The position numbers and the translations under genes were made by a program. A stretch of 60,482 bases of DNA from an uncultured Planctomycetia bacterium (lineage in GTDB: Bacteria > Omnitrophota > Gorgyraeia > Tantalellales > Tantalellaceae), in contig CAYWDJ010000001.1 in assembly GCA_964457005.1 (NCBI GenBank), positions 1 to 60,482 on the forward strand, in the 5' to 3' direction. How positions within the stretch are numbered: the first letter of the stretch is position 1; the number at the start of each line of letters is the position of its first letter. The notes below the pieces were generated by a model. It was not told the DNA's origin, made no database searches, and saw only the letters and a list, made by a program, of their open reading frames with translations. This document shows, one piece after another, positions 10,934-52,324 of the stretch.

Positions 10934-11395
10934 TTACATTAACGGATTGTTCCCTTTTATGCGGATTATTTTCCAGGACCCATCCTGCTCCTCAAAAACA
11001 AAAGTAGCGTTACCCTCAGTGAGAACCAACTGTCCTATATTCCTCTGCTGCACCCTTTTCTGCCACTTGAATGTAACTGCAAGGATCCCGTTATCACGCA
11101 TCACTTTATTTATAAAATACTCTATATCAACTACTATTATTTTGGAGTAAGAACTATCTATGTTGTTTATGAGCTGCATACGATCGGGCGAAAAATCATC
11201 CGAAAATATACTCATAAAACGAGGTATTGAAAAATTCCTATAGGCGTTTAATGTCGACCCCACCAGTTCATCAGCAAGCTGTCTCTCGGATACTCCGTCA
11301 TCTTTAACGCGTACGGCCTCGACCCCTTTGGGAAGCACGATCCCTCCGGCCACAACAGCAATTACGACAATACAACCTAAGTATATTTTTTTCAT
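10934..11395 (-). CDS. Small exported NTF2/SnoaL-like fold protein (153 aa)
   Basis: The track ORF 10934..11728 is trimmed to ATG 11395 (MKKIYLGCIVVIAVVAGG...). This start has a GGGAGG SD and lies 13 nt after the upstream stop at 11409. The sequence resembles a module inside the 1504-aa protein. Confidence 0.6.
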   Translation of the reverse strand: MKKIYLGCIVVIAVVAGGIVLPKGVEAVRVKDDGVSERQLADELVGSTLNAYRNFSIPRFMSIFSDDFSPDRMQLINNIDSSYSKIIVVDIEYFINKVMRDNGILAVTFKWQKRVQQRNIGQLVLTEGNATFVFEEQDGSWKIIRIKGNNPLM

Positions 11396-11408
11396 ATATC
11401 CTCCCGTT

Positions 11409-13157
11409 CTAGAAATTACTTGAGACCCTGACTGTAGCCCGGTCCTCCGTATAATTCTGCGAACTGTCCTCATGCTTATAAACATTCTCTTCCAGTCTAA
11501 AGGTAATGCGCGGAGACCGTTTGTCTTTAAATTGGAAGATAAATTCTCCGTAATTCTTCGTATTGGTAAAGTTGCTGGAAGGTCCCGCCGCATCGGTATG
11601 CTGAACATTGTTACCAAACCTGAAAGTGCAAAGTTTATGGAACTCATAAGTACCAAAAAACGAGTTACCAACAGTGACTTCGGGATTAGTATCTGTTTTA
11701 GTGGCGCGAAAATCCAATGATATATCATCTGAGAAGTAAAACCTTCTTCCGAAAAGTTCGGTTTCTATCCCTATATTGCCATTAATGCGGTTGTAGATAT
11801 CCGACCCCGTGAGACTGTTCGCCAGATCTATATACTGCCTGTATTCGTATCCCGTGCCATAAGTTATCCTGCCATTCATAAGACTGTCATTAACGGAAAC
11901 GCCGTAAGTATTGGTCTTGGACTTGAGAGAATCGTTTATATCGTCAGAACTCACATTGAGCAGGTTAACATATGACCTGATCGCAAAACTTGAACTATCC
12001 GTGAATGGTCTAAAGTAGGCCGTCATATATTTCTGGTCGTTTATGGTCCTCAGATTTCTGGAACTTCCCTTCAAATGATCCCAGTACAGGTTTTCAATAA
12101 AAGAAAGCGTAAGATACTTATTCATTCTCCAGTCGGCCGTGAACTGATGCTGTTCTTTATCGGACATGGCAGATCCGGCATCCGTATAAAATTTTGGAGT
12201 GACATAGTAATACAGGTATTTAAACTTAAAGTCATCTATCTTTAAGGTGGGTTGTATGCGAAAAGCTATCCCGCTGCGCAGATCTTCGGTCCTGTCTTTT
12301 TGATCGTTACGGGCGACGCTCTGGGCGAGTTCATACACTACGGAAAAATCCTTGGCCGGTCTTATTTCTCCATCCAAACTCACCACTGAATTATTCATAT
12401 CCTCAGCAGAGGTGACCTTGTCTATACTTCCGCTGTCATCCTGGGAAGTGACCGCCTGAACACCTATCCTAAAAAGAGGAAAATCACTTTCATCCCGAAA
12501 AACATACTCTGCCTTTCCCCCGAACACATATCTTGCATAAAGGTCAGCCGCGTCATCAGCCTCATGCCTTCTGGCCGCCACCATCTTATATCTCTGGCTC
12601 TTATTATGACTTAGCTCTACATTAAAACCTTCCAGGCTTGAGCCAAGAACGAACTGGCTGAAATCTCCATAAAAATCCCCGAACTGCACCAGGTTATCTT
12701 CATTGTAGACTTTAACATCAAACTGCTTCAGTCTGATATCTTTTCTGGGTTCTATCCGCCTATCATCGGTTTTGCGAAAGAAAAACTGGCTCTCAAGATT
12801 ATAATCCGACCATAAGCGCTCCTGTACATTGAGGTTAAGTTCGGTAAGCTGATAAACGCCTTTCCGTAAAAACGATTTACTGCCGTTTCCGGAAACACTG
12901 TTCCAGTTGACCTCCTGGAATATATTCCCCGAAATACGTCCGGAACGTTCGGGGCCATATTCTCCGTAGGACTTAAAATCCAACAAGTCATCTACTCGAT
13001 CTTCCAGGGTAAATTGCTTATTTTTAGCACCTGTCCCTTCGGAACCGATCCCTCCCCCTCCGAGGTAATAGACTTCCGCCGCGTAAGCTACAGGACTTAA
13101 GCTAAAAAATGGTAAAAATAGGATAGTAATTATGGTAAGCTTTATATTTTTCTTCAT
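11409..13157 (-). CDS. Putative outer-membrane beta-barrel protein (582 aa)
   Basis: Signal peptide MKKNIKLTIITILFLPFFSLSPVAYA, an alternating-hydrophobic Tyr/Gly/Asp-rich sequence throughout, and a C-terminal ...VRVSSNF ending in Phe. Confidence 0.6.
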   Translation of the reverse strand: MKKNIKLTIITILFLPFFSLSPVAYAAEVYYLGGGGIGSEGTGAKNKQFTLEDRVDDLLDFKSYGEYGPERSGRISGNIFQEVNWNSVSGNGSKSFLRKGVYQLTELNLNVQERLWSDYNLESQFFFRKTDDRRIEPRKDIRLKQFDVKVYNEDNLVQFGDFYGDFSQFVLGSSLEGFNVELSHNKSQRYKMVAARRHEADDAADLYARYVFGGKAEYVFRDESDFPLFRIGVQAVTSQDDSGSIDKVTSAEDMNNSVVSLDGEIRPAKDFSVVYELAQSVARNDQKDRTEDLRSGIAFRIQPTLKIDDFKFKYLYYYVTPKFYTDAGSAMSDKEQHQFTADWRMNKYLTLSFIENLYWDHLKGSSRNLRTINDQKYMTAYFRPFTDSSSFAIRSYVNLLNVSSDDINDSLKSKTNTYGVSVNDSLMNGRITYGTGYEYRQYIDLANSLTGSDIYNRINGNIGIETELFGRRFYFSDDISLDFRATKTDTNPEVTVGNSFFGTYEFHKLCTFRFGNNVQHTDAAGPSSNFTNTKNYGEFIFQFKDKRSPRITFRLEENVYKHEDSSQNYTEDRATVRVSSNF

Positions 13158-20288: not shown

Positions 20289-21215
20289 TTAAAAAAACAA
20301 TATTTTATCGATTATGCTGAACCTGTCTATAACTCCTATCAATGTGCCGTCGTCTTCCACTATGAATAATTTTGTTTTTCTCTTTACGGCCATCTCAAAA
20401 ATTATTTCAAGAAGAGTGCTGTCTTTTTTTATTCCACTGCCCCTTTTAAGGCCAAGGTCTTTGACTTTTATCCCCTTTTTAATATTGAAATATTTCTCTA
20501 ACGGGTCTATGTGTTTTATAAAAGAAACAGTCTGCAGCTGCCTGAAAAAATCAGGCATGCCAAACGTGAAAATATCATAGCAGGATATTTCTCCGTAAAA
20601 CCTGTTATTGTCATCGACTACAGGCAATATACTGATCCGTTTAAGATGCATCTTCTCGGTAACTTCTTCAATGGAAGTCTTTAATGTAACAACTTCCTTT
20701 ACCGGTCGGACTATATCGCGGGCAAGGACCTGTTCCGTGGCCTCTATTTCCTTTTCCTGCATAGTGTCGAATATCCTGGTTATCTTTTCTGGATCACTCA
20801 GGACATCCCCCTCCGGTCCCATATCTCCGATGAACCGGATGATAGCGGACATGGACTGAAGTATCATATATGGCTGTTCCGTTGAAGATATCATGAGGAA
20901 CACGAACTTGACGGGCTTGTCGTCCAAAGAGTTAAAATCCACAGTCTCGGTTAATACCCCCATGGCCATACGGAACTCTCCCCATTTTTCTATCCTGGCA
21001 TGGGGAAATGCCAATTCATGCCCTATTCCAGTACTCTGGAGCGACTCCCTCTTTATAACGGAATTATATGTTTCTTCCTTCGACACGGGGATAGCTCCCG
21101 CACCCGCTTCCTGGTATATCTTTTCGACAAGAAGCTTTATAGCCTCCTCTTTTGTCGAAGCCTTCAATTCAGGCACTATGGTATCGGAGTTTAAATACCG
21201 ACTTATATCGATCAT
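20289..21215 (-). CDS. PTS EIIA(Ntr)-type domain fused to a CBS pair
   Basis: N-terminal EIIA-2 pattern with the phosphorylatable His in GIGHELAFPHARIE. The C-terminal two CBS repeats include ILPVVDDNNRFYGEIS and LFIVEDDGTLIGVID. Confidence 0.75.
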   Translation of the reverse strand: MIDISRYLNSDTIVPELKASTKEEAIKLLVEKIYQEAGAGAIPVSKEETYNSVIKRESLQSTGIGHELAFPHARIEKWGEFRMAMGVLTETVDFNSLDDKPVKFVFLMISSTEQPYMILQSMSAIIRFIGDMGPEGDVLSDPEKITRIFDTMQEKEIEATEQVLARDIVRPVKEVVTLKTSIEEVTEKMHLKRISILPVVDDNNRFYGEISCYDIFTFGMPDFFRQLQTVSFIKHIDPLEKYFNIKKGIKVKDLGLKRGSGIKKDSTLLEIIFEMAVKRKTKLFIVEDDGTLIGVIDRFSIIDKILFF

Positions 21216-23967: not shown

Positions 23968-24675
23968 TTAAACTGCTTCCCACGGAAAAAGATGTTTTCT
24001 TTCCATTTCTAAAAGCAACTGGATGACCTCATCTCCCGAGGACATATTCATAAACTTATCAATAACACCTTCGACATGCAGAAGCTTGGATATTTTTGCC
24101 ATTAATCTGAGGTGTATCATCATATTCGGCGCACAAGGCATAAAAATAAGATGCACCTTTTTCTTGTCCGGAGAAGAATACTCCACGCCCTTTCCGGCCC
24201 TTGCCATAAGAATATTGGGTTTTTTAAAGAGGGTCAGATCCGGCTGTCTAGGATGCGGAATAGCTATACCATTACCGACAGCCGTACTTAACATCTCTTC
24301 TCTCAGCTTCAATTCTTCTAAAAGCCTTTCCGCGTTATCTATTATTCCGGCCGTAAAAGCAATGTCTACGATCTCGTCAAGAACCCCCTCTTTATCTTTT
24401 GCCTGAAGGTCCAGTTCTATCATGGAAATACTCATAAGACGGGACAGAGGTATCTGGTAATCGGCCGTATTTAAAGCACCATAAATCTCATTTTCAGGGA
24501 CCTTCATAATATCTTTTTGAAGGTATCGGTCAATGGCTTCTAAATTGAAACGCCACTGGCTGCCTATTTTTACACCCGGAAGTTCACCCTTTTGAGCCAT
24601 TTTGAGTATAGTTTTCTCGTTTAACTTCATATACTCGGCTAACTCTTGTGTAGTCAAGATTTGGGTTTTACTCAC
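23968..24675 (-). CDS. Excisionase/MerR-type HTH fused to a PTS EIIA(Ntr)-type domain
   Basis: N-terminal LTTQELAEYMKLNEKTILKMAQKGELPGVKIGSQWRF is the HTH_17 pattern. C-terminal GNGIAIPHPRQPD...VHLIFMP is EIIA-2. GTG start with a GGAGGGG SD. Confidence 0.8.
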   Translation of the reverse strand: MSKTQILTTQELAEYMKLNEKTILKMAQKGELPGVKIGSQWRFNLEAIDRYLQKDIMKVPENEIYGALNTADYQIPLSRLMSISMIELDLQAKDKEGVLDEIVDIAFTAGIIDNAERLLEELKLREEMLSTAVGNGIAIPHPRQPDLTLFKKPNILMARAGKGVEYSSPDKKKVHLIFMPCAPNMMIHLRLMAKISKLLHVEGVIDKFMNMSSGDEVIQLLLEMERKHLFPWEAV

Positions 24676-29360: not shown

Positions 29361-29434
29361 AAAAAACAAAAAGCCCCAAGCCGTTATGCTTCAACGACTT
29401 GGAGCTTCTATTTTTAAATGGTGGAGGTGCCGGG
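29361..29434 (-). repeat. tRNA/tmRNA-3'-end-like core (16 nt) + rho-independent terminator, downstream of the PGK-fusion gene
   Basis: Minus strand, 30 nt after the stop: CCCGGCACCTCCACCA-TTTAAAAATAGA-AGCTCCAAG(17 nt)CTTGGGGCT-TTTTGTTTTTT. The stem has a G.U on the minus strand but a C.A mismatch on the plus strand. Confidence 0.7.
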
Positions 29435-29463: not shown

Positions 29464-32400
29464 TTAGGCCGCCGTAAGCACCTTGAGAATATTATCAAGT
29501 CCTTGTATGTCCATCGGAACTATAGGCCTTAGAACGTGGCCGATAACATAGCTGAACCTTTCATTAACGGTTTTTCCAGAATCTACCAGATTTGCTATGT
29601 ACTCATCCACATCAGCGGATCCACTGAGATATTCTGAAAGGATAGCTTTCAATACGGTATAACCGGATCTATCCCGATATTCTTCGGAAGGAAGGGTCCT
29701 TGCCAACAATATAGTTTCTAAGACTCCTCTCACAAAAGAATCGTGTCTCTCTCCCCTGCCAGGGATACCCTGCATGCTGAAATTCATGGGCAATACATCC
29801 GCAAAAACCTGTGGATTGGCATCTACTATTTCCTTCAAAACAGAATAGGTCAAATCCGTTGTGAGCAAACCTATCTTCGCCCCTTTATATCTGGCTACAA
29901 TTTCATGTAACCTGCCTATATCAGTATACTGGTTATATTGAACAAATTCGATATTACCGGCAGAAACAGATCCTTTTCCAAAAACTTCATTAATGAATTT
30001 TCCGCATTCTTTCTTGCCAGCAAAACTCTGCGGCACAATAAAAACCATCTTGTTAGATTCCGCGTCAGCCGCGATCTCCATAGCGGCCTTGTCTATAATA
30101 ACATCCGAAACTGGAGCTTCACTCTCTTCAGATTCCTGTTCGCCAGGCGGCATATTAAACATGTTCCAAGCAAGCCCTTTTTCGGTGGCCTTTTTTAAAG
30201 ACTGAACCGCGGGGAGGGGCTTTTGACCCGCTAAATACTGCAATGTAGCTCCTCCGGCAAGCGTCTGATAACTGAATCTATCTCCAAAAATATCCAAGGC
30301 CTTATCCGTATCTCCTCCTCCTCCGAATGAGAACAGATCTCCTTCCTCAGACCTCTCGGAGATCCTTCCGAAAACAATTCTCGTCCCTTCCGCGTATGCA
30401 TCATCGATGTCAAACGCCCCTAAAGGGCCCTTAATATATATCGTCTTTGCGGTATCAACAGCCCCCAGATATCTTCCAACAGTTTCAGGGCCTATATCAT
30501 AGAGCACCAGGTCTGTCCCGGCTAATTCCTCGACCTTAACTACCTTAACACCGTCTGGCCCTTTTACCACAACGTCAACAGGAGCCATAAATTTCCCCTT
30601 ATATGTGCTATCCAACTCTTTTATCTTAGCCAGCGCAGCGTCCAGGTCCATCTTACTTCTTAAGAATGCCACGTTCGCTTCACCTATATCTATACCCCTT
30701 GCCATTAAAAGCACATTCGCCAAGCCACCACCGGTTATGATAGTGCTTACCCAGTTTTCGCTCAATGCCCTTTCCATAAGATCCAGATAATCGTCTATTT
30801 TTATTCCTCCGAGCGCCATAACATAAGGTTGTTCTATCTCCTCGGTAGCTTTACCTAACCCCGTAAGCTCCTTTTCCATAAGACGTCCTGCAACATTAGG
30901 CACTCCGGTAAACCCGACAACACTCGCCGCTGCCCTGTGAGCAACTGAAAAGCCGTCTATTACATGTATGTCGATCAACGGCTGCAAATTCTCGACAAGC
31001 TCACCAAGAGAATGATCAACACCTTTCGCCTGTTCTCCTTTCCAGGAACGAACATTTTTCAGTATCAATATCTGCCCGGGCTTAAGATTACGAATGGCAT
31101 CTTTAGCTGTATCCCCAAACAGGTCATCTATAACTATCACATCATATTTCCTTCCGCTTTCAGGATCTATCGCTTCCATTTCCTGTTTTAAAACCGCCGC
31201 ATGCTGTTCCATAGTTTCAAGATAATCCTTATCACCCGGTCTGCCCTGATGACCCATAACAACTGTTTTGGCTCCTCTATCAGACAGTTCTTTCAATGTT
31301 ACAGCCGCCGCCTTGATTCTATTATTAGTTGTGACCTTCCCGCCTCGCGTCAAAGTCGTATTAATATCGACTCTTACACTTACTGTCCTGTCCTCAACAT
31401 CCACTTCATCCAATGTAAAATATTCTCTCTTTGTCCTATACTTACCAACAGGCACTATGTGCCTGTTATTACGTATCCTGGCTTTCATTAACTCTTGAAA
31501 ACTTGCTGCCTGGTCAGAGTCTACCCCCTCATGGGAGATCCCGGTTCTTCCCAGCAGCCCCGTTCCTCCGGCTGAAGCAGGCGAACCTCTTAATGTCCGC
31601 GCTCCGAATTCCTCCATAAAATAGAACACCATCGTGTCACCCAAACCATAGAGCTCTTTATCCGCACCCCTATTCCAATTTGCTGCCTGGATCCAGTGAA
31701 TAGTATTGGTGTCATTGTCATCATCATATTTAATGACCGTTCCGATCTCTATCCTCTGTTCTCCACTTGCGTCTGTGGATATCAACACAAAACCTTCTTC
31801 TTCATCAGGATCAGAGTAGGCAAGCCCTCCAAACTGGAGTATCCCCGCCTTCTGAATAAGAGGCAGCATGTCAGGACTAAATTTTCTAATCTCAAAGGTC
31901 CGCTCTTTACGCATCTTTCTATTCTGTATCCCGGCCAATATTTCTCTCTCGTCAGCGGCACTCTGCTGAGCTGCATAATAATCAACTTTATCCGGGGTCT
32001 GCCACCTGGTCTCAAAAGACCTCTCGCCGGCAACAGCCAACAGTGCTTTATCCGCCGCGGTTAATACAAGATTTTCGGGATCACTCAGCCATTTAGAGAA
32101 TATTTTCTCCATTTCCCGGCATTGTTTATGTTCTAATCCGGCCTTGGCAAAAACCTCATGCACGATTGCGCTATGAACACTGCCTGCGAACCCTTCAGGA
32201 ATATATATACCTACTCCCCCGGCGTGGGGCTCAGAAAGACCCGGTATAGACATCAACTGGCCTGAAGCTACAAGATTCTTGAACTGTTTGGCTATCGCGG
32301 GATTTACCCATTCAATAAATTCATTGGCTGAACCAACACTACCTATATCCAGGGTCTCAGCCTTCCCGCTGGTTATGGCTTCATGAATGATCTTATCTGC

Positions 32401-32988
32401 CGTATTCTCATGCGCGGCATATGTCATTATCGCGGCGTCATTAGCAACCTCTCGTTTCAAGCGAGCCACAAATTCCATAGCATTCGCCACTGAAGAGGAA
32501 ATTTGAGGAGCGATAAAATTCTCATACTCTTCCGGCGTAAAGACTTTAAACACATAAGTTCCGGACATCTCTTCTTTTATTGCGCAGCATACATAACTAT
32601 TGTCGTTTATGGAACAAGGAATGACCAGAAGATCACCGTCACCGTACTCTTGCTTCTTCCTGATATTGAATATAATGCTATCCCCCGGCCTCTCTATTCC
32701 CTCCGTTCCCTTTTCTTTAAGGATCTCATCAACGATAATGTTACGTCTGATAGCGTTGATGTCTCTACCCTTTTCCGCATACTCATACATTATCGTAGCC
32801 GTTAGCTTCATTACATCCCTAAGCGCGGGGGTCTCAATTGGAGCCAACCGTGATTCCGCGGCAAGATCGTCCACTGAAAGAATGTCTGAAGATATTCTTC
32901 CCCCTGAAAAGGCATCTATCACCATGACATTATTCGCTAAAAACGCGATAGTTGTAATAATTACGAGAAATTGTTTCATAACTTTCAT
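29464..32988 (-). CDS. Multidomain protein: signal peptide/anchor + ~520-aa unknown region + archaeal-type phosphoglycerate kinase domain + ~235-aa unknown C-terminal region
   Basis: The PGK domain (about nt 30190-31430) is collinear with archaeal PGK: FTLDEVDVEDRTVSVRVDIN, LSDRGAKTVVMGHQGRPG, ILILKNVR, FSVAHR, GGIKIDD, ITGGGLAN, GPLGAFD, FGGGGDT. Start trimmed to ATG 32988 (MKVMKQFLVIITTIAFL, AAGGAGA SD); the track ORF extends to 33045. Confidence 0.8.
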   Translation of the reverse strand: MKVMKQFLVIITTIAFLANNVMVIDAFSGGRISSDILSVDDLAAESRLAPIETPALRDVMKLTATIMYEYAEKGRDINAIRRNIIVDEILKEKGTEGIERPGDSIIFNIRKKQEYGDGDLLVIPCSINDNSYVCCAIKEEMSGTYVFKVFTPEEYENFIAPQISSSVANAMEFVARLKREVANDAAIMTYAAHENTADKIIHEAITSGKAETLDIGSVGSANEFIEWVNPAIAKQFKNLVASGQLMSIPGLSEPHAGGVGIYIPEGFAGSVHSAIVHEVFAKAGLEHKQCREMEKIFSKWLSDPENLVLTAADKALLAVAGERSFETRWQTPDKVDYYAAQQSAADEREILAGIQNRKMRKERTFEIRKFSPDMLPLIQKAGILQFGGLAYSDPDEEEGFVLISTDASGEQRIEIGTVIKYDDDNDTNTIHWIQAANWNRGADKELYGLGDTMVFYFMEEFGARTLRGSPASAGGTGLLGRTGISHEGVDSDQAASFQELMKARIRNNRHIVPVGKYRTKREYFTLDEVDVEDRTVSVRVDINTTLTRGGKVTTNNRIKAAAVTLKELSDRGAKTVVMGHQGRPGDKDYLETMEQHAAVLKQEMEAIDPESGRKYDVIVIDDLFGDTAKDAIRNLKPGQILILKNVRSWKGEQAKGVDHSLGELVENLQPLIDIHVIDGFSVAHRAAASVVGFTGVPNVAGRLMEKELTGLGKATEEIEQPYVMALGGIKIDDYLDLMERALSENWVSTIITGGGLANVLLMARGIDIGEANVAFLRSKMDLDAALAKIKELDSTYKGKFMAPVDVVVKGPDGVKVVKVEELAGTDLVLYDIGPETVGRYLGAVDTAKTIYIKGPLGAFDIDDAYAEGTRIVFGRISERSEEGDLFSFGGGGDTDKALDIFGDRFSYQTLAGGATLQYLAGQKPLPAVQSLKKATEKGLAWNMFNMPPGEQESEESEAPVSDVIIDKAAMEIAADAESNKMVFIVPQSFAGKKECGKFINEVFGKGSVSAGNIEFVQYNQYTDIGRLHEIVARYKGAKIGLLTTDLTYSVLKEIVDANPQVFADVLPMNFSMQGIPGRGERHDSFVRGVLETILLARTLPSEEYRDRSGYTVLKAILSEYLSGSADVDEYIANLVDSGKTVNERFSYVIGHVLRPIVPMDIQGLDNILKVLTAA

Positions 32989-33180
32989 ATGTGAAGTCTC
33001 CTTAAATTGGCTAAGTGTACAAAAAATCAAATCGTAAAACTTCAATGCAGCACAATGTAAATGGGTATATTGCTGTCATTTCCGTTCCGACAATTTAAAA
33101 TCTTAACACCACTATCTTACCAGATGAATCTAGTTAGGGCAATAAAAATCTATGTTACTTTTTCATACCTAACATCCTAT

Positions 33181-33208
33181 ATAATAACAGATTAATTTTC
33201 CCTTGTAA
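33181..33208 (-). promoter_or_regulatory. Candidate promoter of the PGK-fusion gene
   Basis: Minus strand reads TTACAA - 16 nt - TATTAT, about 190 nt upstream of ATG 32988. Confidence 0.35.
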
Positions 33209-33394
33209 CACCTTACCATATAAGCATTTACAACTCACGCCGACAGAGGATACCGTAAGATACCCCTTGAAGCCCCTATGCAGGAAACCTTAGCGTGCTC
33301 CACCCTTCCCGCAGCCGAATACAGCGGAACTGAAAATCTGCTCAACCCGATGTGCGGTAGTGACACTATCACCATAGAAGCTGCGTTGATATCT

Positions 33395-33574: not shown

Positions 33575-34075
33575 ATGGGAAAAATGTTCGATGAAAAAGG
33601 TAAATTAAATATCCCCGTAGCGGGATCTATCAGCATACCAAAATCAAAGATACATAAAAAAGGCAATCAACTTATTATCAGCAAGGCATACTGCCCAAAA
33701 GGGCACAGCCTCATGAGCAACGTACAAGTTGATGGTGAACCGGGACTTCATTTTATTTATACGAATAAAGCAGACACGAAAGAAACAGATATCGTCATCT
33801 CTTCTGTCGTAAAAAAATGCAGAAAAAAGATTTTGAAAGGCGAAGCTTTTAAAAAGAATGAAATGGTTAAGATTCTCTGCCCCACATGCCGGACAGAACT
33901 TGATATACTGTTCGACTGCGAATGTGGTGCACCCATATATATATTTTATCTAGACAAAAAGCGAAATTACTATTATGGTCAGTCTTTCTGCTCCCGAATC
34001 GGGTGTGTAAAGGCAAGTCAACTTCGTTTCTCACAAGATACACTCCAAGAATTCATCACCAAACACACATTTTAG
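33575..34075 (+). CDS. Hypothetical Cys-rich (zinc-ribbon-like) protein, 166 aa
   Basis: AAGGAGA SD. CPKGH...CPTCRTELDILFDCECG...CSRIGC cysteine pairs. It is one of only three plus-strand genes and I recognise no family. Confidence 0.5.
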   Translation: MGKMFDEKGKLNIPVAGSISIPKSKIHKKGNQLIISKAYCPKGHSLMSNVQVDGEPGLHFIYTNKADTKETDIVISSVVKKCRKKILKGEAFKKNEMVKILCPTCRTELDILFDCECGAPIYIFYLDKKRNYYYGQSFCSRIGCVKASQLRFSQDTLQEFITKHTF

Positions 34076-46871: not shown

Positions 46872-47320
46872 AGCGCCACCAGCCCCCCGGTTATTATAAC
46901 GAGAATAAACCTTACGATTATAGCCCCGACCACAGACAACATAAAGGTCTCGAGGACTCCCTGTCTTTGCATCCAATATGCCATAAGCCCCGGGACTATA
47001 AATCCAAAATCCACTTCATACCCCTTAAAAGCCGGCGTATTAAAAAAATATGCCAGGCTAAGACTTACCAGAAACCCTACCAGGATACATACCACCATCA
47101 TTTTTCTTCCGTATATGATCATAATATTGCTCATAACCCGGACTATTCCCACGGTCAAAAGAGCCGCACCAAATATCTGGGCCATAGAGGCTATATCCGT
47201 TATATGGAGTGCAAGATACCCGGGAACGAAAAACCCCCCGAGTATCACGCCGAGCATTTCAACGACCATAAGGTTGATCATCAATCCCACAAATATTGAT
47301 AAATATAAAAAATCCTGCAT
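46868..47320 (-). CDS. pgsC: Poly-gamma-glutamate biosynthesis protein PgsC/CapC
   Basis: 150 aa with 4-5 TM segments. N-terminus LYLSIFVGLMINLMVVEMLGVILGGFFVPGYLAL is typical of CapC. Abuts pgsB. Confidence 0.75.
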   Translation of the reverse strand: MQDFLYLSIFVGLMINLMVVEMLGVILGGFFVPGYLALHITDIASMAQIFGAALLTVGIVRVMSNIMIIYGRKMMVVCILVGFLVSLSLAYFFNTPAFKGYEVDFGFIVPGLMAYWMQRQGVLETFMLSVVGAIIVRFILVIITGGLVAL

Positions 47321-48537
47321 TACTGGACCTTCCTCTCATTAGCTTTTTCGGACATCGTGGACACAAGATCAAAGAACTCCTCTCCACGACCTTTTATGTT
47401 CCCCGCGCAAAACACAAAATTATGATTATTGGCGAGCTCCGTGCATTTATTAAATGTCGCTTCCGCGTGTTTCATGCCCATACAAACTATCTTTGAAGGG
47501 TGAACCCCCGATTTTAATAGCATCCTTTTGAATAGCCGCCATCCGGTACCTGTAGCTATATATACATCAACCGGAAATCTCGCGAAAGATCTCGCTATAT
47601 CCACCGACCTTATAGGCCTATCGCGGCGGGCGTTAAATAGAAATATTTTTTTCTGTCCCTGTCTGAACTTACGGCTCATTCTCGTCCATATCATTGCGGT
47701 GGAATCCGGATCATTCGCGGCAAAAGCATTGACAAACTCAAACCACTTACCTTCATGCAAGAAACTCTTGGTCCTCAGAACTCCCGGGTCAGGCGTAGTA
47801 TTGTACATCCCCCTTAACGCTACGGCTTCCTCCACCCCAAGATGTTTACATACATCCAGCACCAGGGCCACATTCTCACGGGTTTCCAGGAACGGGAACG
47901 GTAACATCATTTCATCGGTTATAGCGGAGGTATCCCGGCACTGAACAGCATCGGCCTTATTTTTATCGGCATTCTTTTTAATTATGTCGAAATAAGTTCT
48001 CTCTGCGGTAAAAACAGTCTTACCTCTGGGTATGGTATTTGATAAAGCATTTGCGATCTGCTGGAGAGACCCTCCCATGCTTTCCCGATGGTCATTCCTT
48101 ACATTCGTTATTATCCCGAGATCGGACCTGAGCATCTTTGATTCGGTAATTTTCTGGTATCCCGGATCGATGGCCATACATTCAGCCACAAGAACCTCCG
48201 CTCCGGTTACGGCAGCTTCCTTTACTACTTTCATCTGCTCGTTTATATTAGGATAGGCTCCTCTTTTTATGTCTACAACCTGGTCCCCTACTGTTATAAG
48301 TTGAGGAACTGTACCGGTGGTCTTGGCCATCACCTTGTAGCCGGCTTCTTTTAATGCAAAACATAAGAGCCTTACAACGGAAGATTTCCCGCGGGTTCCG
48401 TTGACGTTGATAACAAGTTTTAATCTTGACCTAAGAGAAAGGTGCAGGAAATAGCGAGCTATTTCCCACGTCACAAATAAGGAGAGCATAATAATAGCGT
48501 AAAAAACATACATTGCCCTTATCGACATATTAAGCAT
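47320..48537 (-). CDS. pgsB: Poly-gamma-glutamate synthase PgsB/CapB (Mur-ligase fold)
   Basis: N-terminal TM helix, then VINVNGTRGKSSVVRL (Mur ligase P-loop), ECMAI and ITNVRNDH motifs. Start chosen at ATG 48537 (GGAGA SD); the track ORF starts at 48576. Confidence 0.8.
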   Translation of the reverse strand: MLNMSIRAMYVFYAIIMLSLFVTWEIARYFLHLSLRSRLKLVINVNGTRGKSSVVRLLCFALKEAGYKVMAKTTGTVPQLITVGDQVVDIKRGAYPNINEQMKVVKEAAVTGAEVLVAECMAIDPGYQKITESKMLRSDLGIITNVRNDHRESMGGSLQQIANALSNTIPRGKTVFTAERTYFDIIKKNADKNKADAVQCRDTSAITDEMMLPFPFLETRENVALVLDVCKHLGVEEAVALRGMYNTTPDPGVLRTKSFLHEGKWFEFVNAFAANDPDSTAMIWTRMSRKFRQGQKKIFLFNARRDRPIRSVDIARSFARFPVDVYIATGTGWRLFKRMLLKSGVHPSKIVCMGMKHAEATFNKCTELANNHNFVFCAGNIKGRGEEFFDLVSTMSEKANERKVQ

Positions 48538-48582
48538 TTCAATTCTCCGTGTAGGTAGGTGAAAGAAGCACAGCATCGATCC

Positions 48583-49629
48583 TTATAGGCAAGCCAGATC
48601 AACATTATCAAAATTCCTTTTATAGTACCTCATATAATCTACTTTGCACTCCAAAGATTGCATGACTGCATGAGAAAAGTTAACGCCCTCAAATTTTTGC
48701 GCGCTTCCTAATCCCCCGGGTGAAAACACATTAATTTCCATTAATTTGTCTCCGACAATATCCAGTCCAACCAAGAACATTCCATCCTGAACTAATTTTG
48801 GACGAACGATCTCGACGATATTAAGCATCTCTGGGGTTATTTCTGCCTGTTTCAACTTTCCGCCTGCATGAATATTGCTCCTCATATCATCCCCTGTACG
48901 AACACGACGAAAAGCACAATATTTACCTTTGTATTTTAGAGCCTGTCCATTCATAACAAAAAGTCGGGTATCTCCTTCTTCGGCTTTAGGTAAATATTCT
49001 TGCGCAATCACATATCCATCTCTGCTAACCGCATCGATCATCTGATTTAAATTTGAAAGATCACTGGGATTAACAAGAAAAACACCTTGGCCTCCCGATC
49101 CCTGTAAAGGCTTTAAAACAATTTTCCCTCCTTCCTGTTTAGCAAATTCTTTTATTTCATCCCTATTACGAGTAATCAACGTCCTGGGCCTTACTTCTTC
49201 AGGAAAAAGCTGAAAATACATTTTATTCATCGCTTTTGAAAGACCATTCGGATCATTCAAAACAATAACTCCGTTACGCATGGCAACTCTACCAAAAATA
49301 ATGCCTGAAGATTGAGCCCATGATCGTAAGCCGGCATCCTCGGCAGGATCACTTCTTAACATTAATATGTCTAAGTCATCCACAGTAATTTTCTCAACAG
49401 GAGCTTTTTGCGTTTGAATGTCCTTAATTAATCTATCTGAAAGTTTATATTTTTTCTGCGGAATTGCTTGGGCATGCGCACAAATTTTTTCATCAAGGTC
49501 ATAAACAAAGTCCCCTGCCCCAATTATCCAAACTGAATGACCTCTATTGACTGCCGCCATAGCGAGTCGGATTGTTGTATACCCTGCTTCCTCAGTCTTT
49601 ACATCATTAACTACAAACCCTAGTTTCAT
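48583..49629 (-). CDS. Glutathione-synthetase-like ATP-grasp ligase (GshB/RimK superfamily)
   Basis: Collinear with E. coli GshB by eye: MKLGFVVND, DILMLRSDP, IVLKPLQGSGGQGVF, AQEYLP, GDTRLFVMNG, NIHAGG, FLVGLDIVGDKLMEINVFSPGG. Confidence 0.8.
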   Translation of the reverse strand: MKLGFVVNDVKTEEAGYTTIRLAMAAVNRGHSVWIIGAGDFVYDLDEKICAHAQAIPQKKYKLSDRLIKDIQTQKAPVEKITVDDLDILMLRSDPAEDAGLRSWAQSSGIIFGRVAMRNGVIVLNDPNGLSKAMNKMYFQLFPEEVRPRTLITRNRDEIKEFAKQEGGKIVLKPLQGSGGQGVFLVNPSDLSNLNQMIDAVSRDGYVIAQEYLPKAEEGDTRLFVMNGQALKYKGKYCAFRRVRTGDDMRSNIHAGGKLKQAEITPEMLNIVEIVRPKLVQDGMFLVGLDIVGDKLMEINVFSPGGLGSAQKFEGVNFSHAVMQSLECKVDYMRYYKRNFDNVDLACL

Positions 49630-51536
49630 TTTAATCCTCCTTCTGGCAAATTATAAACTTCTATCCCTTTTTGTATCCTTTCCAATTTTTCTTTGACGCC
49701 GGCTGTCGATAAAAATCTTGGACGCAAAACAGATGTAGACAATATTTTTCTTGAGACCAGTTCTTTTATAACAGGAATATGATCAAATCCAAATTTCCCG
49801 ATAAACAATAGATCTAGATCTCCCCCTTTTTTTATAAACTCCAGAACTTTCTGCAGCCCCCTGAGATAAATAATGTCTTTAATTGATCCGCCGGCTCTAT
49901 AAGTACGAAATGTTATCCTAAAAGCATGCCCTTTGTCAAAGCTATATTTATTTATTAACCCATCAAACGTTTCTACGAAATTCTTTCCGTCTGCAAGCCA
50001 TCTGGCTGCAATAACTCTCGCAGCAACCGTTCGCAATCTGGCAGGCGTGAGTTCCCCTGAAAGAAATTCAGCTAAAAGAGCAAGGCCCTCTTGTAATTCT
50101 TCATATCCTGCAAGTCCGCTATATAGTTGTTTGAATGGCTGCTGACGGCCATTATAGTACGTTACCAAATGTGTCCCCACTTCATGTTGGATCAAAGCGT
50201 TGACTCTCGACTCAGAGATTTTAGCATTCTTCCCGATGTGAACCTTATTCCCAACAACAAGAATTCCCGGGACACTTTCATCTATCTCTGCTAAAGCGTC
50301 AAACATATGGCACTCCTGCTTATAATGGAGGATCTCATCGTTTACTTTTTTCAGGAAGCCCATTGAGTCTATTAAATTTTTACTTTCGGATGATGAAGGT
50401 ATCTTATTTAATATTTTTTGCGCTAACTCTGTAAGCTTATTATCTACTTTTCCGTAGAGCTGTAAGTTGCTAAACAAAAAACGTTTAGTTCCTCTATTTA
50501 TTAACATATTTAAACGGTGTTCCAATTCAAATTGTTTTTCTCTGAAAAGATCAGCTAATGTAGGGTCTTCAATTCGTTCAATAGGGATATTAAACAACCT
50601 TCGCTTAATTAGTGCAGGATCTATCGGTAAAGGTCGATAATAAAATTCCGGTATTTTACTGAACTTATCAGTTTTAAACTGATTCCAGGCAGCTCCCGCA
50701 TTCACAGGAGTAATCAACAATAGAAAATCAAAGGCATTGCTAACTTCAGCTAATTTTGAATCTATTTCCCAAACAGCTTTTACAACCGCTCTTCGCCCCA
50801 ATGCCTTGTAATTAGACGGCTGGTGATCTGTATGCTCCTTCAAAAAAATAAAACATAATTGTTTCAAAGCCTTGGATAAACCACGATGCAGCGATCGCAG
50901 GACCAGGGGAAAAAGCTCTCCGTTCTTCTGGCTTCTGTATATGGGATTTACGGTTATTCCAACTGAATAAGATCGATACTTTTCACTAGCTTCTTTTTTT
51001 AGTAACAATGGTAGCCCTTGTGGTGCAACCTTGGCCTCAAAGGACATTTTTACATCAGCATATACTTTGAGGATCCGGATCTTCTTAAGAAAATCCGCAA
51101 AACCTGATAGCATTGGGGTGTAAAGACTAAATTTCGGATCTTCCGTAGAGATCCTGAACATCGTTTTTTGCAATGCCCCTTTAGTTGTTTTTGGACTCTT
51201 ACCCCTTTCCGCCCATAGCTCCAACAGTAAAAATCCTCCAAATTCAGCAGACATGATCTTAACAATATTTTCAAGTAGCTTTTCTAAATTCTTCTGATAT
51301 CGTGGATCTGCGGTTACGATCAAATATGAGGCTTCACCCATTATCAGCCGCTCTGTTCCTTCATCCTTAGAATTCAAGGGTTTTCGATAAACAAACAGGA
51401 ATGGCATTGGCCGATCAATGTGGATCCGTCCTCCCGGAAGGGTTCGGCGAACCCTCTTCCCTTGCGAAAGTCTTGTACATATTGCCTTGACTAGCCGGTC
51501 AAATTTTTCTTCTGATGATCTTATTTTTTTATTCAT
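49626..51536 (-). CDS. QEGLA-motif / DUF1704 (MATCAP-like metallocarboxypeptidase) family protein
   Basis: Literal motif YEELQEGLALLAE and the upstream metal-site-like IQHEVGTHLVT. 636 aa. 4-nt overlaps with both neighbours. Confidence 0.8.
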   Translation of the reverse strand: MNKKIRSSEEKFDRLVKAICTRLSQGKRVRRTLPGGRIHIDRPMPFLFVYRKPLNSKDEGTERLIMGEASYLIVTADPRYQKNLEKLLENIVKIMSAEFGGFLLLELWAERGKSPKTTKGALQKTMFRISTEDPKFSLYTPMLSGFADFLKKIRILKVYADVKMSFEAKVAPQGLPLLLKKEASEKYRSYSVGITVNPIYRSQKNGELFPLVLRSLHRGLSKALKQLCFIFLKEHTDHQPSNYKALGRRAVVKAVWEIDSKLAEVSNAFDFLLLITPVNAGAAWNQFKTDKFSKIPEFYYRPLPIDPALIKRRLFNIPIERIEDPTLADLFREKQFELEHRLNMLINRGTKRFLFSNLQLYGKVDNKLTELAQKILNKIPSSSESKNLIDSMGFLKKVNDEILHYKQECHMFDALAEIDESVPGILVVGNKVHIGKNAKISESRVNALIQHEVGTHLVTYYNGRQQPFKQLYSGLAGYEELQEGLALLAEFLSGELTPARLRTVAARVIAARWLADGKNFVETFDGLINKYSFDKGHAFRITFRTYRAGGSIKDIIYLRGLQKVLEFIKKGGDLDLLFIGKFGFDHIPVIKELVSRKILSTSVLRPRFLSTAGVKEKLERIQKGIEVYNLPEGGLK

Positions 51537-52324
51537 ATTTTATTCAATTCTTCAAGAACTCCGGGCACAGCTGATTGCAATGCTTGAAAAATAGTTTGTA
51601 TTTTTTCTTTGTCAGGCTCGCCGGTCCATTCATTCATAAAGATTTTTTTAAATTCAATAGATAGAACACATGCTGCATCGGGAAATTTTTCATGCACAAA
51701 TTCAGGGAAATGTCCCCCGCGAAACTTAATATTTTCTCTAACGTCTAATTTTCTTCCAAAATAATTAAAACTAGACAAATCATCAATGAAATTATTAATA
51801 ACACCCTTCCAACGAGATCTATCGAGCATCGTTCCTGTTCCAATATTCACTTCAGGATTGTCTTTGCCCGCAGCAGGCTGAGCATCAGGTCCATTTCGCC
51901 TATGGTTATAGGAATGCACATCAAAAACAACAAACTTTCCAAATTTACTCTCAAATTCTGATAGCACATCATGAATATTTTTGTAAAACAAGTCATATGT
52001 CTGTAACGAACTTCTCACAAATTTCTCGCCTGGTTTTGATTCCCAAACATTAAGCCCCCAAGCATCATCAGGAGTCAAATAAACAGCCTTATCCCTTGCG
52101 CGATTCAAATCAACCTCAAATCGTGATGTCTTTACAATCAAACTATTCTCAACGACACCTGTCCACGCTCCAGTGAAAGGATCTTCCTCTCGCAAACGAT
52201 CCTCACTGCTCAATGCCATTAACTTTAAGGCTTCTTCGCTAAGCTGGTGCCCATCATGTATGGCGGTAGCAATCACCGGAACATCATTATTTTTTAAATT
52301 TAATAAATAGTCCATATTTGTCAT
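51533..52324 (-). CDS. N-formylglutamate amidohydrolase (FGase) family protein
   Basis: IHDGH, EEDPFT, DLNR, VFDVHSY and NIGTG motifs in the order expected for the FGase/HutG-like fold. 263 aa. Confidence 0.7.
   Translation of the reverse strand: MTNMDYLLNLKNNDVPVIATAIHDGHQLSEEALKLMALSSEDRLREEDPFTGAWTGVVENSLIVKTSRFEVDLNRARDKAVYLTPDDAWGLNVWESKPGEKFVRSSLQTYDLFYKNIHDVLSEFESKFGKFVVFDVHSYNHRRNGPDAQPAAGKDNPEVNIGTGTMLDRSRWKGVINNFIDDLSSFNYFGRKLDVRENIKFRGGHFPEFVHEKFPDAACVLSIEFKKIFMNEWTGEPDKEKIQTIFQALQSAVPGVLEELNKI

What the first reader, a model, noticed from the sequence alone, without database searches (positions are those of the whole stretch)
29464..32988. Archaeal-type phosphoglycerate kinase domain buried in a 1174-aa protein with an N-terminal signal/anchor
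A complete PGK domain (about nt 30190-31430) sits in one uninterrupted ORF. It carries both lobes and the motifs RVDIN, GHQGRPG, NVR, AHR, GGxKxxD, TGGG, GPxGxFxxD and GGGD.

It lies between a ~520-aa N-terminal region and a ~235-aa C-terminal region that I cannot place in any family. The best-supported start (AAGGAGA SD) gives MKVMKQFLVIITTIAFLANNVMVIDA, a signal-peptide or signal-anchor sequence.

Stand-alone PGK is about 400 aa and cytosolic. A membrane-tethered or exported, triple-sized PGK is unusual. So is an archaeal-type sequence in a bacterium that has TolC, RND and type IV pilus genes. The gene sits directly upstream of phoB/phoR/NaPi.
Basis: partly seen in the sequence, partly recalled or inferred. 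Interest (0 to 1): 0.65.

Follow-up and report, generated by a model that had tools for sequence, protein, structure and literature searches.

The report
Signal-peptide scaffold protein carrying a PGK domain
This real 1174-residue gene belongs to a small, unnamed protein family of the little-known bacterial phylum Omnitrophota, in which an export-type leader and two conserved end modules frame interchangeable sugar or phosphate kinase domains (here an intact archaeal-type phosphoglycerate kinase), raising the question of where an ATP-dependent enzyme with an export signal does its work.

Summary
Window 29464-32988 (-) is one uninterrupted 1174-aa ORF with an AAGGAGA Shine-Dalgarno site. It has a single N-terminal hydrophobic leader and a full-length PGK domain at aa 526-922 (Pfam E=1e-88). 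A second, independent assembly carries the identical protein.

The PGK domain looks active: all 3-PG-binding and catalytic residues are present. It is archaeal-type. The best PDB match by sequence and by fold is Pyrococcus PGK, and two of the three nearest stand-alone relatives I examined lie on archaeal contigs.

The flanks match no curated family, but they are not orphan sequence. The leader plus N module (aa 1-345) and the C module (aa 955-1174) recur at 29-37% identity at the ends of other proteins from Omnitrophota MAGs. Between those modules sit other kinases (FGGY kinase + hexokinase, galactokinase), unassigned repeat regions, or nothing at all (584-585 aa minimal members). The closest PGK domains (44-57% identity) also sit inside large proteins that carry a leader wherever the N-terminus is intact.

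This is therefore a mid-sized case of the leader-bearing multi-enzyme long proteins already described for Omnitrophota, built on a scaffold that the papers I could search do not describe. Export is inferred, not shown. The PhoB-like/NaPi adjacency is neither operonic (a strong terminator intervenes) nor conserved.

The parts
33181..33209 (-). Promoter-like site (GTTACA, 17 nt, TATTAT with an extended -10 TG), about 190 nt upstream of the start codon
   Evidence: Consensus scan only. Weak evidence.
32997..33003 (-). Shine-Dalgarno AAGGAGA, 8 nt before the ATG
   Evidence: Read directly from the sequence.
32911..32988 (-). Sec-type leader, aa 1-26: MKVMKQ (n-region), FLVIITTIAFLANNVMV (h-region), IDA|F (possible signal peptidase I site)
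   Evidence: It is the only hydrophobic segment in the protein. F16, L17 and N19 are invariant across the family, and the leader is 47% identical pairwise against 37% for the scaffold overall. It has the same form as the leaders of the TolC-like and DUF481 outer-membrane proteins in this window. Neither SignalP nor DeepTMHMM could be run.
31954..32910 (-). Conserved N module (aa ~27-345), with invariant HAGGxGIY (aa 255-262) and HE-x-FAK (aa 277-282)
   Evidence: BLASTP E=1e-28 to 1e-53 against the N-termini of P0009, P0011, P0028, P0066, P0122, P0126 and P0138. Alignment A1. AF2 pLDDT 70-90 for aa 100-335. No Pfam, PDB or Foldseek relative.
31414..31953 (-). Linker, aa 346-525, unique to this protein and unassigned
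   Evidence: No homolog among the 150 best library hits or the locus proteins. No Pfam hit. AF2 pLDDT below 50.
30223..31413 (-). Complete PGK domain (aa 526-922), archaeal-type
   Evidence: Pfam PF00162, profile 1-379/379, E=1e-88. PDB 2cun E=1e-54. AF2 pLDDT ~90, and Foldseek 2cun_A target-normalised TM 0.89, rmsd 2.8 A. Binding and catalytic residues are intact.
30127..30222 (-). Acidic spacer, aa 923-954
   Evidence: Low pLDDT at aa 939-957. This stretch lies between the Pfam PGK match and the C module.
29467..30126 (-). Conserved C module (aa 955-1174), an alpha/beta three-layer domain ending ...LRPIVPMD...LTAA
   Evidence: BLASTP E=1e-16 to 1e-39 against the C-termini of P0138, P0009, P0095, P0011, P0126, P0066, P0122 and P0028. 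AF2 pLDDT 80-90. Only weak flavodoxin/SIS-like fold hits, E>=0.08.
29369..29409 (-). Terminator-like hairpin (18 pairs, then a T run) between this gene and the response-regulator gene

Best explanation
Shown:
- The gene encodes a member of a modular protein family whose named members all come from Omnitrophota.
- The family architecture is a Sec-type leader, a conserved ~320-aa N module, a variable insert, and a conserved ~220-aa C module.
- The insert can be absent. It can also be an FGGY kinase plus hexokinase, a galactokinase, or an unassigned repeat region. One relative, Ca. Omnitrophus magneticus, has the N module but no detected C module and carries histidine-kinase and receiver-type regions instead. 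In the window protein the insert is a unique linker plus a complete archaeal-type PGK.
- The PGK keeps every residue needed to bind 3-phosphoglycerate and to transfer the phosphoryl group.
- The gene looks monocistronic, with its own promoter-like site and a strong terminator-like hairpin.

Inferred:
- The leader sends the protein through Sec, N-in and C-out by the positive-inside rule, with possible cleavage after Ala26. The bulk would then lie outside the producer's cytoplasm, in the periplasm, on the surface, or passed on to an attached cell.
- The N and C modules would supply a shared function such as docking, assembly or handover.
- The PGK payload would catalyse 1,3-bisphosphoglycerate + ADP <-> 3-phosphoglycerate + ATP wherever adenine nucleotides are available. 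The most plausible place is the interface with, or the cytoplasm of, a host or prey cell.

This fits the predatory or parasitic lifestyle proposed for the phylum and the published long proteins that carry glycolytic domains behind signal peptides.
For: Family and architecture:
- The deep library search found N-module matches at the N-termini and C-module matches at the C-termini of other large proteins.
- Local BLASTP gave E down to 1e-53 for the N module and 1e-39 for the C module.
- An 8-sequence alignment has 54 invariant columns.
- Two members of 584 and 585 aa consist of the N and C modules alone.
- Pfam on the relatives shows FGGY, hexokinase and GHMP galactokinase inserts.
- Further members came from genome and metagenome scans.

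Taxon: every name that sources give to family members points to Omnitrophota.

PGK integrity: residues D23, N25, R38, H62, R65, R122, R170, K215, D374 and T375 are kept. The K219Y, N336K and E343D changes also occur among the closest library PGKs, fused and stand-alone. The fold matches Pyrococcus PGK at target-normalised TM 0.89.

Leader:
- It is the only hydrophobic segment in the protein.
- Lysines precede it and acidic residues follow it.
- It has the same form as the leaders of outer-membrane proteins in the window.
- Large PGK- or N-module-bearing proteins with intact N-termini carry such a leader, against 1 of 112 stand-alone PGKs.

Gene structure: the ORF is reproduced in an independent assembly, no Shine-Dalgarno site precedes any internal start, and a terminator follows the gene.

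Literature: Omnitrophota long proteins carry TPI, GPI, FBPase, PGM/PMM, FBA and PPDK domains in regions predicted to be extracellular (bioRxiv 10.1101/2023.11.21.568195). In a second study, 94% of 916 long proteins have a signal peptide or TM helix, and hexokinase and PGM domains are common (bioRxiv 10.64898/2026.06.07.730766).
Against: - Every identified enzymatic insert in the family uses ATP or ADP, and bacterial periplasm is not known to contain ATP. The Ca. Omnitrophus magneticus relative carries histidine-kinase and receiver regions, judged by similarity to the window's histidine kinases and by reading its sequence, and these normally work in the cytoplasm. This argues for a cytoplasm-facing location, or requires delivery into another cell.
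- No signal-peptide or topology predictor was run, and the window protein lacks the family's usual Ala at the aligned -1 position.
- The N and C modules have no detectable relative of known function, so their proposed role is a guess.
- The window's taxon is inferred from homologs only. None of its proteins carries a name.
- I could not check whether the genome has another PGK. If this is the only one, it must work in glycolysis in the cytoplasm.
Confidence: 0.55

Rival explanations
1. Membrane-tethered, cytoplasm-facing metabolic enzyme. The leader is an uncleaved anchor, and the kinases sit at the inner face of the membrane. There they would trap imported sugars or make ATP beside transporters, much as hexokinase is anchored to mitochondria or PGK is bound to the erythrocyte membrane. 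This could even be the cell's housekeeping PGK.
For: All identified inserts depend on ATP or ADP: hexokinase, FGGY kinase, galactokinase and PGK. The Ca. Omnitrophus magneticus relative L005 also shows histidine-kinase similarity. The window is rich in transporters, including MFS sugar, NaPi and CitMHS types. The 2026 preprint reads 46% of the long proteins as membrane-anchored with cytoplasmic domains and reports PGK in 176 of 176 complete genomes. West-Roberts et al. concede that the extracellular prediction for glycolytic domains may be wrong.
Against: The charge distribution (two to four Lys/Arg before the h-region, acidic residues after it) and the small residues at -3/-1 are those of an export signal. 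The leader resembles those of outer-membrane proteins in the same window. There is no second TM segment to bring the chain back inside.
Confidence: 0.3
2. Non-catalytic PGK-like domain. The fold would be kept as a ligand sensor for 3-PG or nucleotide, or as a binding surface in the manner of moonlighting surface PGK, rather than as an enzyme.
For: Three nucleotide-site positions differ from human PGK1: K219Y, N336K and E343D. Several related fused PGKs have Lys or Arg at position 343.
Against: The 3-PG patch, K215, the glycine loops and D374/T375 are all intact. The same three substitutions occur in stand-alone PGKs of this clade, including ones in glycolytic operons. The Pfam match is full length.
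Confidence: 0.08
3. Artefact: an assembly chimera, a missed stop or frameshift, or an internal start that really yields a stand-alone PGK.
For: None found. The slightly higher G+C inside the ORF (0.47-0.48 against about 0.41) is the only irregularity.
Against: An independent assembly encodes the identical protein. The N and C modules flank other inserts in many unrelated contigs. No Shine-Dalgarno-like site precedes any internal start near the PGK domain.
Confidence: 0.03

Closest known systems
Omnitrophota long or giant multi-enzyme proteins ('Archaeovorins' and related; West-Roberts et al. 2023 bioRxiv 10.1101/2023.11.21.568195; 2026 bioRxiv 10.64898/2026.06.07.730766)
   Same: Same phylum, judged by homolog names. 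Both have an N-terminal signal peptide or TM segment followed by normally cytosolic sugar or glycolytic enzyme domains (PGM/PMM, hexokinase, PPDK_N, TPI, FBA). The closest PGK domains to ours sit in such proteins of 1157-3815 aa.
   Different: This protein is only 1174 aa and has a single Pfam domain. It has no HEAT/TPR scaffolding and no C39/S8 peptidase. PGK is not in the 2023 preprint's list of glycolytic domains in giant proteins, and I did not find the N/C-module scaffold with swappable kinase inserts described in either preprint or in my searches.
Canonical phosphoglycerate kinase (PF00162), archaeal branch (e.g. Pyrococcus horikoshii, PDB 2cun)
   Same: Both lobes and all key residues are present. 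The fold matches at target-normalised TM 0.89 with 31% identity.
   Different: Stand-alone PGKs are ~400 aa and have no leader (1 of 112 had an N-terminal hydrophobic segment). Here the domain is internal to a protein three times that size.
PGK-TIM fusion of Thermotoga (NCBIfam PRK13962)
   Same: PGK fused to another module in a single polypeptide. It was the only NCBIfam hit.
   Different: Only the PGK half matches (238 bits against a cut-off of 883). There is no TIM domain and the partner modules are unrelated.
Modular secreted effectors and polymorphic toxins (conserved trafficking ends, variable payload)
   Same: The logic is the same: a conserved leader and flanking modules with interchangeable catalytic inserts. 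This is a functional analogy only.
   Different: The payload is internal rather than C-terminal. There are no toxin, immunity or secretion-system marker domains. No linkage to a secretion locus was found in the window or in related loci.
Moonlighting surface PGK (streptococci, fungi) and compartment-targeted PGK (glycosomal PGK of trypanosomes)
   Same: PGK located outside the cytosol. This comparison rests on my own knowledge.
   Different: The moonlighting forms have no leader and are of ordinary size. The glycosomal forms use peroxisomal signals. Neither has these modules.

Membership tests
Phosphoglycerate kinase (Pfam PF00162) | Full-length match to the family profile above the gathering score | tested here: met
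   298 bits against a cut-off of 27, profile 1-379/379, aa 526-922.
Phosphoglycerate kinase (Pfam PF00162) | 3-PG basic patch and phosphoryl-transfer residues (human numbering D23, N25, R38, H62, R65, R122, R170, K215, G372-G373-D374-T375) | tested here: met
   All are present. K219Y, N336K and E343D also occur among the closest fused and stand-alone PGKs. The human reference sequence was recalled from memory and checked against the published numbering.
Phosphoglycerate kinase (Pfam PF00162) | Two-lobe fold | tested here: met
   AF2 pLDDT ~90. Foldseek 2cun_A E=7e-30, target-normalised TM 0.89.
Phosphoglycerate kinase (Pfam PF00162) | Enzymatic activity | not testable with these tools
   Needs an assay of the recombinant domain.
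Archaeal-type PGK clade | Nearest stand-alone relatives are archaeal | tested here: met
   The best PDB hit by sequence and by fold is Pyrococcus, although Thermotoga scores almost the same by sequence (187.6 against 188.9 bits). P0153/P0006 and P0014 lie beside archaeal ribosomal proteins L15e and S3Ae and an archaeal Cdc45 homolog. P0016 lies on a bacterial contig, so the clade is mixed. No formal tree was built.
Sec/signal peptidase I signal peptide | Basic n-region, 10-18-residue h-region, and small residues at -3 and -1 | tested here: inconclusive
   The features are present by inspection: MKVMKQ, then FLVIITTIAFLANNVMV, then IDA|F. No trained predictor was available. The window protein lacks the family's aligned Ala at -1.
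Omnitrophota leader-bearing long multi-enzyme proteins | Encoded by Omnitrophota | tested here: inconclusive
   All named homologs come from Omnitrophota MAGs, Ca. Omnitrophus magneticus or Ca. Makaraimicrobium.
Omnitrophota leader-bearing long multi-enzyme proteins | N-terminal signal peptide or TM followed by normally cytosolic metabolic enzyme domain(s) | tested here: met
Omnitrophota leader-bearing long multi-enzyme proteins | Very long (catalogues use thresholds of several thousand to 30,000 aa or more), with many distinct Pfam domains | tested here: not met
   1174 aa and one Pfam domain. It is a small relative, not a giant.
Unnamed N-module/C-module scaffold family (defined here) | Leader with the FLxNN motif, N module with HAGGxGIY, and C module ending LRPIVP...(I/V/T)(S/A)A, at the two ends of the protein | tested here: met
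Pho regulon operon (phoB-phoR-linked gene) | Co-transcription with, or conserved linkage to, phoBR | tested here: not met
   A terminator-like hairpin lies between the genes. No relative has this neighbourhood. The regulator falls just below the PhoB cut-off, and the kinase matches WalK, PnpS and PhoR cores alike.

The most novel reading that the evidence does not exclude
Omnitrophota may export a set of ATP-dependent carbohydrate and phosphometabolite kinases (hexokinase, FGGY kinase, galactokinase, PGK) on one common leader-plus-N/C scaffold. These enzymes would then work outside the producer's cytoplasm, either in a periplasmic or junctional space flooded with host cytosol or inside an attached host or prey cell. 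That would amount to an extracytoplasmic or trans-cellular piece of glycolysis used to harvest or drain a partner's ATP and sugar phosphates. The unusually conserved leader (FLxNN) and C-terminal tail could be dedicated sorting signals for this route.
Probability: 0.2. Interest if true: 0.85.

Novelty: new variant of a known kind. Interest (0 to 1): 0.55.

Why it matters
Two preprints have raised the same puzzle for the giant proteins of Omnitrophota: why do normally cytosolic, nucleotide-dependent enzymes sit behind export signals? Proteins of 10,000 to 150,000 aa are nearly impossible to handle experimentally.

This family shows the same paradox at a workable size (584 to about 2500 aa). It has a clean modular layout, a minimal member with no insert, and a payload (PGK) that has a simple activity assay. 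That makes the questions of topology and function directly testable.

If the payloads really act outside the producer's cytoplasm, that would be a new way for epibiotic or predatory bacteria to exploit a partner's central metabolism. If they face the cytoplasm, it would show that Sec-like leaders in this phylum cannot be read by the usual rules, which would change how the giant proteins are interpreted.

The case also records an archaeal-type PGK that was recruited into bacterial multidomain proteins and then shuffled among different scaffolds.

Tried and rejected
- **Word-indexed protein search.** I tried it three times: with the full protein, with an N+C alignment, and with an alignment of the N-module core. 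It returned only the query itself or nothing. The family came to light only through the exhaustive HMMER library search.
- **Curated libraries on the N and C regions.** Pfam, NCBIfam, PHROGs, PADLOC and a PDB sequence profile gave no hits.
- **Fold searches with the N+C model.** Foldseek against PDB and BFVD found nothing below E=0.03. The recurring weak hits to SIS or flavodoxin-like phosphosugar-binding domains for the C module were too weak to use (target-normalised TM 0.23-0.45), and the C module lacks a glycine-rich phosphate loop.
- **Zinc peptidase reading of HAGGxGIY and HExFAK (LAS/M15-like or zincin-like).** Rejected. The Asp ligand position is an invariant Tyr, there is no HExxH, and P0126 lacks the His-Glu pair.
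- **GNAT-like guess for the linker.** Not supported. There is no Pfam hit and no homolog, and pLDDT is below 50.
- **A 60-sequence full-length alignment (A4).** It misaligned the N and C modules onto PGK and was discarded. An 18-sequence set (A5) was checked locally first and then used.
- **Conserved gene neighbourhood or secretion-system linkage.** None found.
- **Rfam scan of the window.** Nothing found.
- **Naming the window's organism through cluster members.** No names were available.
- **Literature searches for a description of this architecture or of PGK in these proteins.** Only the general Omnitrophota papers turned up.


Full report
**1. The observation**

The minus strand carries an open frame at 29464..33045. 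The first ATG with a ribosome-binding site is at 32988 (AAGGAGA, 8-nt spacer) and gives 1174 aa. Pfam places a complete PGK domain at aa 526-922 (profile 1-379/379, 298 bits, E=1e-88). NCBIfam matches only the PGK half of the Thermotoga PGK/TIM model, far below its cut-off.

A Kyte-Doolittle scan finds one hydrophobic segment, at the extreme N-terminus. The regions before and after PGK match nothing in Pfam, NCBIfam, PHROGs, PADLOC or PDB sequences. An independently assembled ENA contig (L014; 2 mismatches in 4727 nt) encodes exactly the same 1174 residues. No internal start codon near the PGK domain has a Shine-Dalgarno-like sequence. The ORF is therefore real and reproducible.

**2. The PGK domain**

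I aligned it with human PGK1, whose recalled sequence I checked against the published residue numbering, and with 133 library PGK domains. The domain keeps D23, N25, R38, H62, R65, R122, R170, K215, the glycine loops, D374 and T375. It differs at K219 (Tyr), N336 (Lys) and E343 (Asp). The same states occur in its closest relatives, fused and stand-alone.

The full-length AlphaFold2 model gives pLDDT of about 90 across the domain. Its best structural match is the archaeal Pyrococcus horikoshii PGK (2cun_A; target-normalised TM 0.89, rmsd 2.8 A). The same entry is the best PDB sequence hit, although Thermotoga follows closely.

Of the three nearest stand-alone relatives I examined, two lie on contigs with archaeal markers: ribosomal proteins L15e and S3Ae, an archaeal Cdc45 homolog and an archaeal ThrRS editing domain. 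One lies in a bacterial TIM-GAPDH-PGK-enolase operon. "Archaeal-type" is therefore a fair label for a clade that also contains some bacteria. I built no formal tree.

**3. The flanks belong to a family**

The exhaustive HMMER search of 1.84 billion representative proteins changed the picture. Residues 2-343 match the N-termini of other large proteins (P0009, P0011, P0028, P0066, P0122, P0126, P0138). Residues 954-1173 match the C-termini of P0095 and P0138.

Local BLASTP confirmed both modules in most of them, with E down to 1e-53 for the N module and 1e-39 for the C module at 29-37% identity. An alignment of N+C from eight members has 54 invariant columns. These include F16, L17 and N19 in the leader, HAGGxGIY (aa 255-262), and a tail ending LRPIVP...(I/V/T)(S/A)A.

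Two members of 584 and 585 aa are simply the N module followed by the C module. The others carry inserts between the modules:
- FGGY kinase plus hexokinase (P0009, P0011, P0066);
- FGGY kinase, galactokinase and hexokinase (P0138);
- galactokinase (P0028).

Genome and metagenome scans added members with unassigned repeat regions as inserts (L002, L003, L009, L010). They also added a Ca. Omnitrophus magneticus protein that has the N module followed by regions resembling sensor histidine kinases and receivers, with no detected C module.

In the window protein the insert is a 180-residue linker plus PGK. The linker has no homolog and is poorly predicted.

Separately, the PGK domains most similar to ours (57, 53, 49 and 44% identity) sit inside other large proteins (P0002 to P0005, 1157-3815 aa). 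Three of them are joined to PPDK_N and a GH5 cellulase domain (P0002) or to PGM/PMM domains (P0004, P0005). P0003 has PGK as its only Pfam domain. Their flanks are different from ours. Large proteins of this set with intact N-termini have a hydrophobic leader, against 1 of 112 stand-alone PGKs.

**4. Which organism**

Sources name the relatives "Candidatus Omnitrophota bacterium", "Candidatus Omnitrophus magneticus SKK-01" or "Candidatus Makaraimicrobium thalassicum". Two automatically labelled TPA bins are called "uncultured Planctomycetia". Omnitrophota or a close relative is therefore an inference from homolog names.

**5. What the modules are**

An AlphaFold2 model of the N+C scaffold (10 sequences; mean pLDDT 73.8) and the full-length model agree:
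- The N module is a beta-meander followed by a helical region, with the HAGG loop between two short strands.
- The C module is a three-layer alpha/beta domain with five parallel strands.
- The relative placement of the domains is not confident (pTM 0.43-0.45).

Foldseek against PDB and BFVD found nothing below E=0.03. The weak SIS or flavodoxin-like hits for the C module are no more than a hint. The function of both modules is unknown.

**6. Context**

The gene appears to be its own transcription unit. It has a promoter-like site about 190 nt upstream, and an 18-pair terminator-like hairpin at 29409-29369 separates it from the response-regulator gene. The regulator scores just under the PhoB equivalog cut-off. 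The kinase matches the WalK, PnpS and PhoR cores without reaching any cut-off. The third gene is a NaPi-PhoU transporter. No relative shares this neighbourhood, and I found no conserved neighbours at all. The rest of the window is mostly transporters and metabolic genes.

**7. Mechanism**

What is shown: a modular scaffold with interchangeable inserts, an apparently competent PGK, and a conserved Sec-like leader.

What is inferred: the leader has two to four Lys/Arg before the hydrophobic core and acidic residues after it, with small residues at -3 and -1. It looks like the leaders of the TolC-like and DUF481 outer-membrane proteins in the same window. Standard rules therefore predict export.

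The difficulty is that every identified enzymatic insert needs ATP or ADP. Either the payload acts where a partner cell's nucleotides are available, or the leader is an anchor and the enzymes face the producer's cytoplasm. The first option fits the predatory or parasitic lifestyle proposed for the phylum (PMC10066038; bioRxiv 10.1101/2023.11.21.568195). I give export about 0.55 and the cytoplasm-facing tether about 0.3.

The leader is 47% identical pairwise and the last 30 residues are 46% identical, against 37% for the scaffold overall. That is unusual for a plain signal peptide and hints at a dedicated recognition step.

**8. Comparison with what is known**

Two preprints describe Omnitrophota long and giant proteins. 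Nearly all have a signal peptide or TM helix, and they carry sugar and glycolytic domains: TPI, GPI, FBPase, PGM/PMM, FBA, PPDK and hexokinase. Both note the same localisation puzzle.

The present protein is a small member of that phenomenon. PGK is not in the 2023 preprint's list of glycolytic domains found in giant proteins. I did not find the N/C-module scaffold, with its insert-free minimal members, described in either preprint or in four literature searches. I therefore rate it a new variant of a known kind, of moderate interest. Its main value is as a tractable model for a published but unresolved question.

Noticed in passing
window 47320-52324 (-): A run of four genes: a Mur-ligase-like protein, a glutathione-synthetase/RimK-type ATP-grasp enzyme, a MATCAP-family (PF08014) carboxypeptidase-like protein of 636 aa, and an N-formylglutamate amidohydrolase-like protein. 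This looks like a peptide or amino-acid ligation-and-trimming cluster.
   Followed up: no
window 6411-10925 (-) and 11409-13157 (-): Two large ORFs (1504 aa and 582 aa) have clear signal-peptide-like N-termini and no Pfam family at all. The 582-aa ORF overlaps a 264-aa ORF at 10934-11728.
   Followed up: partly
window 20289-21215 (-) and 23968-24675 (-): Two PTS EIIA-2-domain proteins, one with a CBS domain and one with an HTH_17 domain, sit beside a CitMHS transporter and a Na+/H+ exchanger-CBS protein. No other PTS components are in the window, so these may be regulatory EIIA modules.
   Followed up: no
window 29369-29409 (-): A very strong terminator-like hairpin (18 pairs, 7 of them G-C, then a T run). 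The plus strand also reads as a weaker terminator at 29388-29405, so it may work in both directions.
   Followed up: partly
family leaders, e.g. window 32911-32988 (-); L001 7440-; L009 2165-: The signal-like leader is better conserved than the protein body (F16, L17 and N19 invariant; consensus MKKxxKxLSxxxxxxFLxNNxxFA|D). The extreme C-terminus always ends in (I/V/T/F)(S/A)A. These may be dedicated sorting signals.
   Followed up: partly
L007, L009, L010, L012 (all from metagenome Ga0163203): Four different family members occur in one sample. L012 stops after 354 aa, inside the N module, which suggests a truncated copy or pseudogene.
   Followed up: no
P0028 (aa 1-357 and 373-703) and P0095 / L006 4-2379: Some members carry the N module twice in tandem.
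   Followed up: no
P0007 and P0040 (797 and 795 aa): These proteins consist of two complete PGK domains in tandem, both with canonical K219, and with N336 and E343 except for one Asp at position 336.
   Followed up: no
P0041/P0155 (1014 aa, Nanoarchaeota) and P0050, P0100, P0109, P0133, P0144 (709-748 aa): These are archaeal-type PGKs with an N-terminal PGK domain followed by 300-600 residues of extension that I did not examine. They represent a different PGK fusion class.
   Followed up: no
L005 7470-14288 (Candidatus Omnitrophus magneticus SKK-01): A 2272-aa protein with a leader and the N module, followed by regions resembling sensor histidine kinases and receiver domains, with no detected C module. 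This call rests on similarity to the window's kinases and on reading the sequence. It was not scanned against Pfam.
   Followed up: partly
window 33575-34075 (+): The divergently oriented 166-aa ORF upstream of the PGK-fusion gene has no Pfam or NCBIfam match.
   Followed up: no
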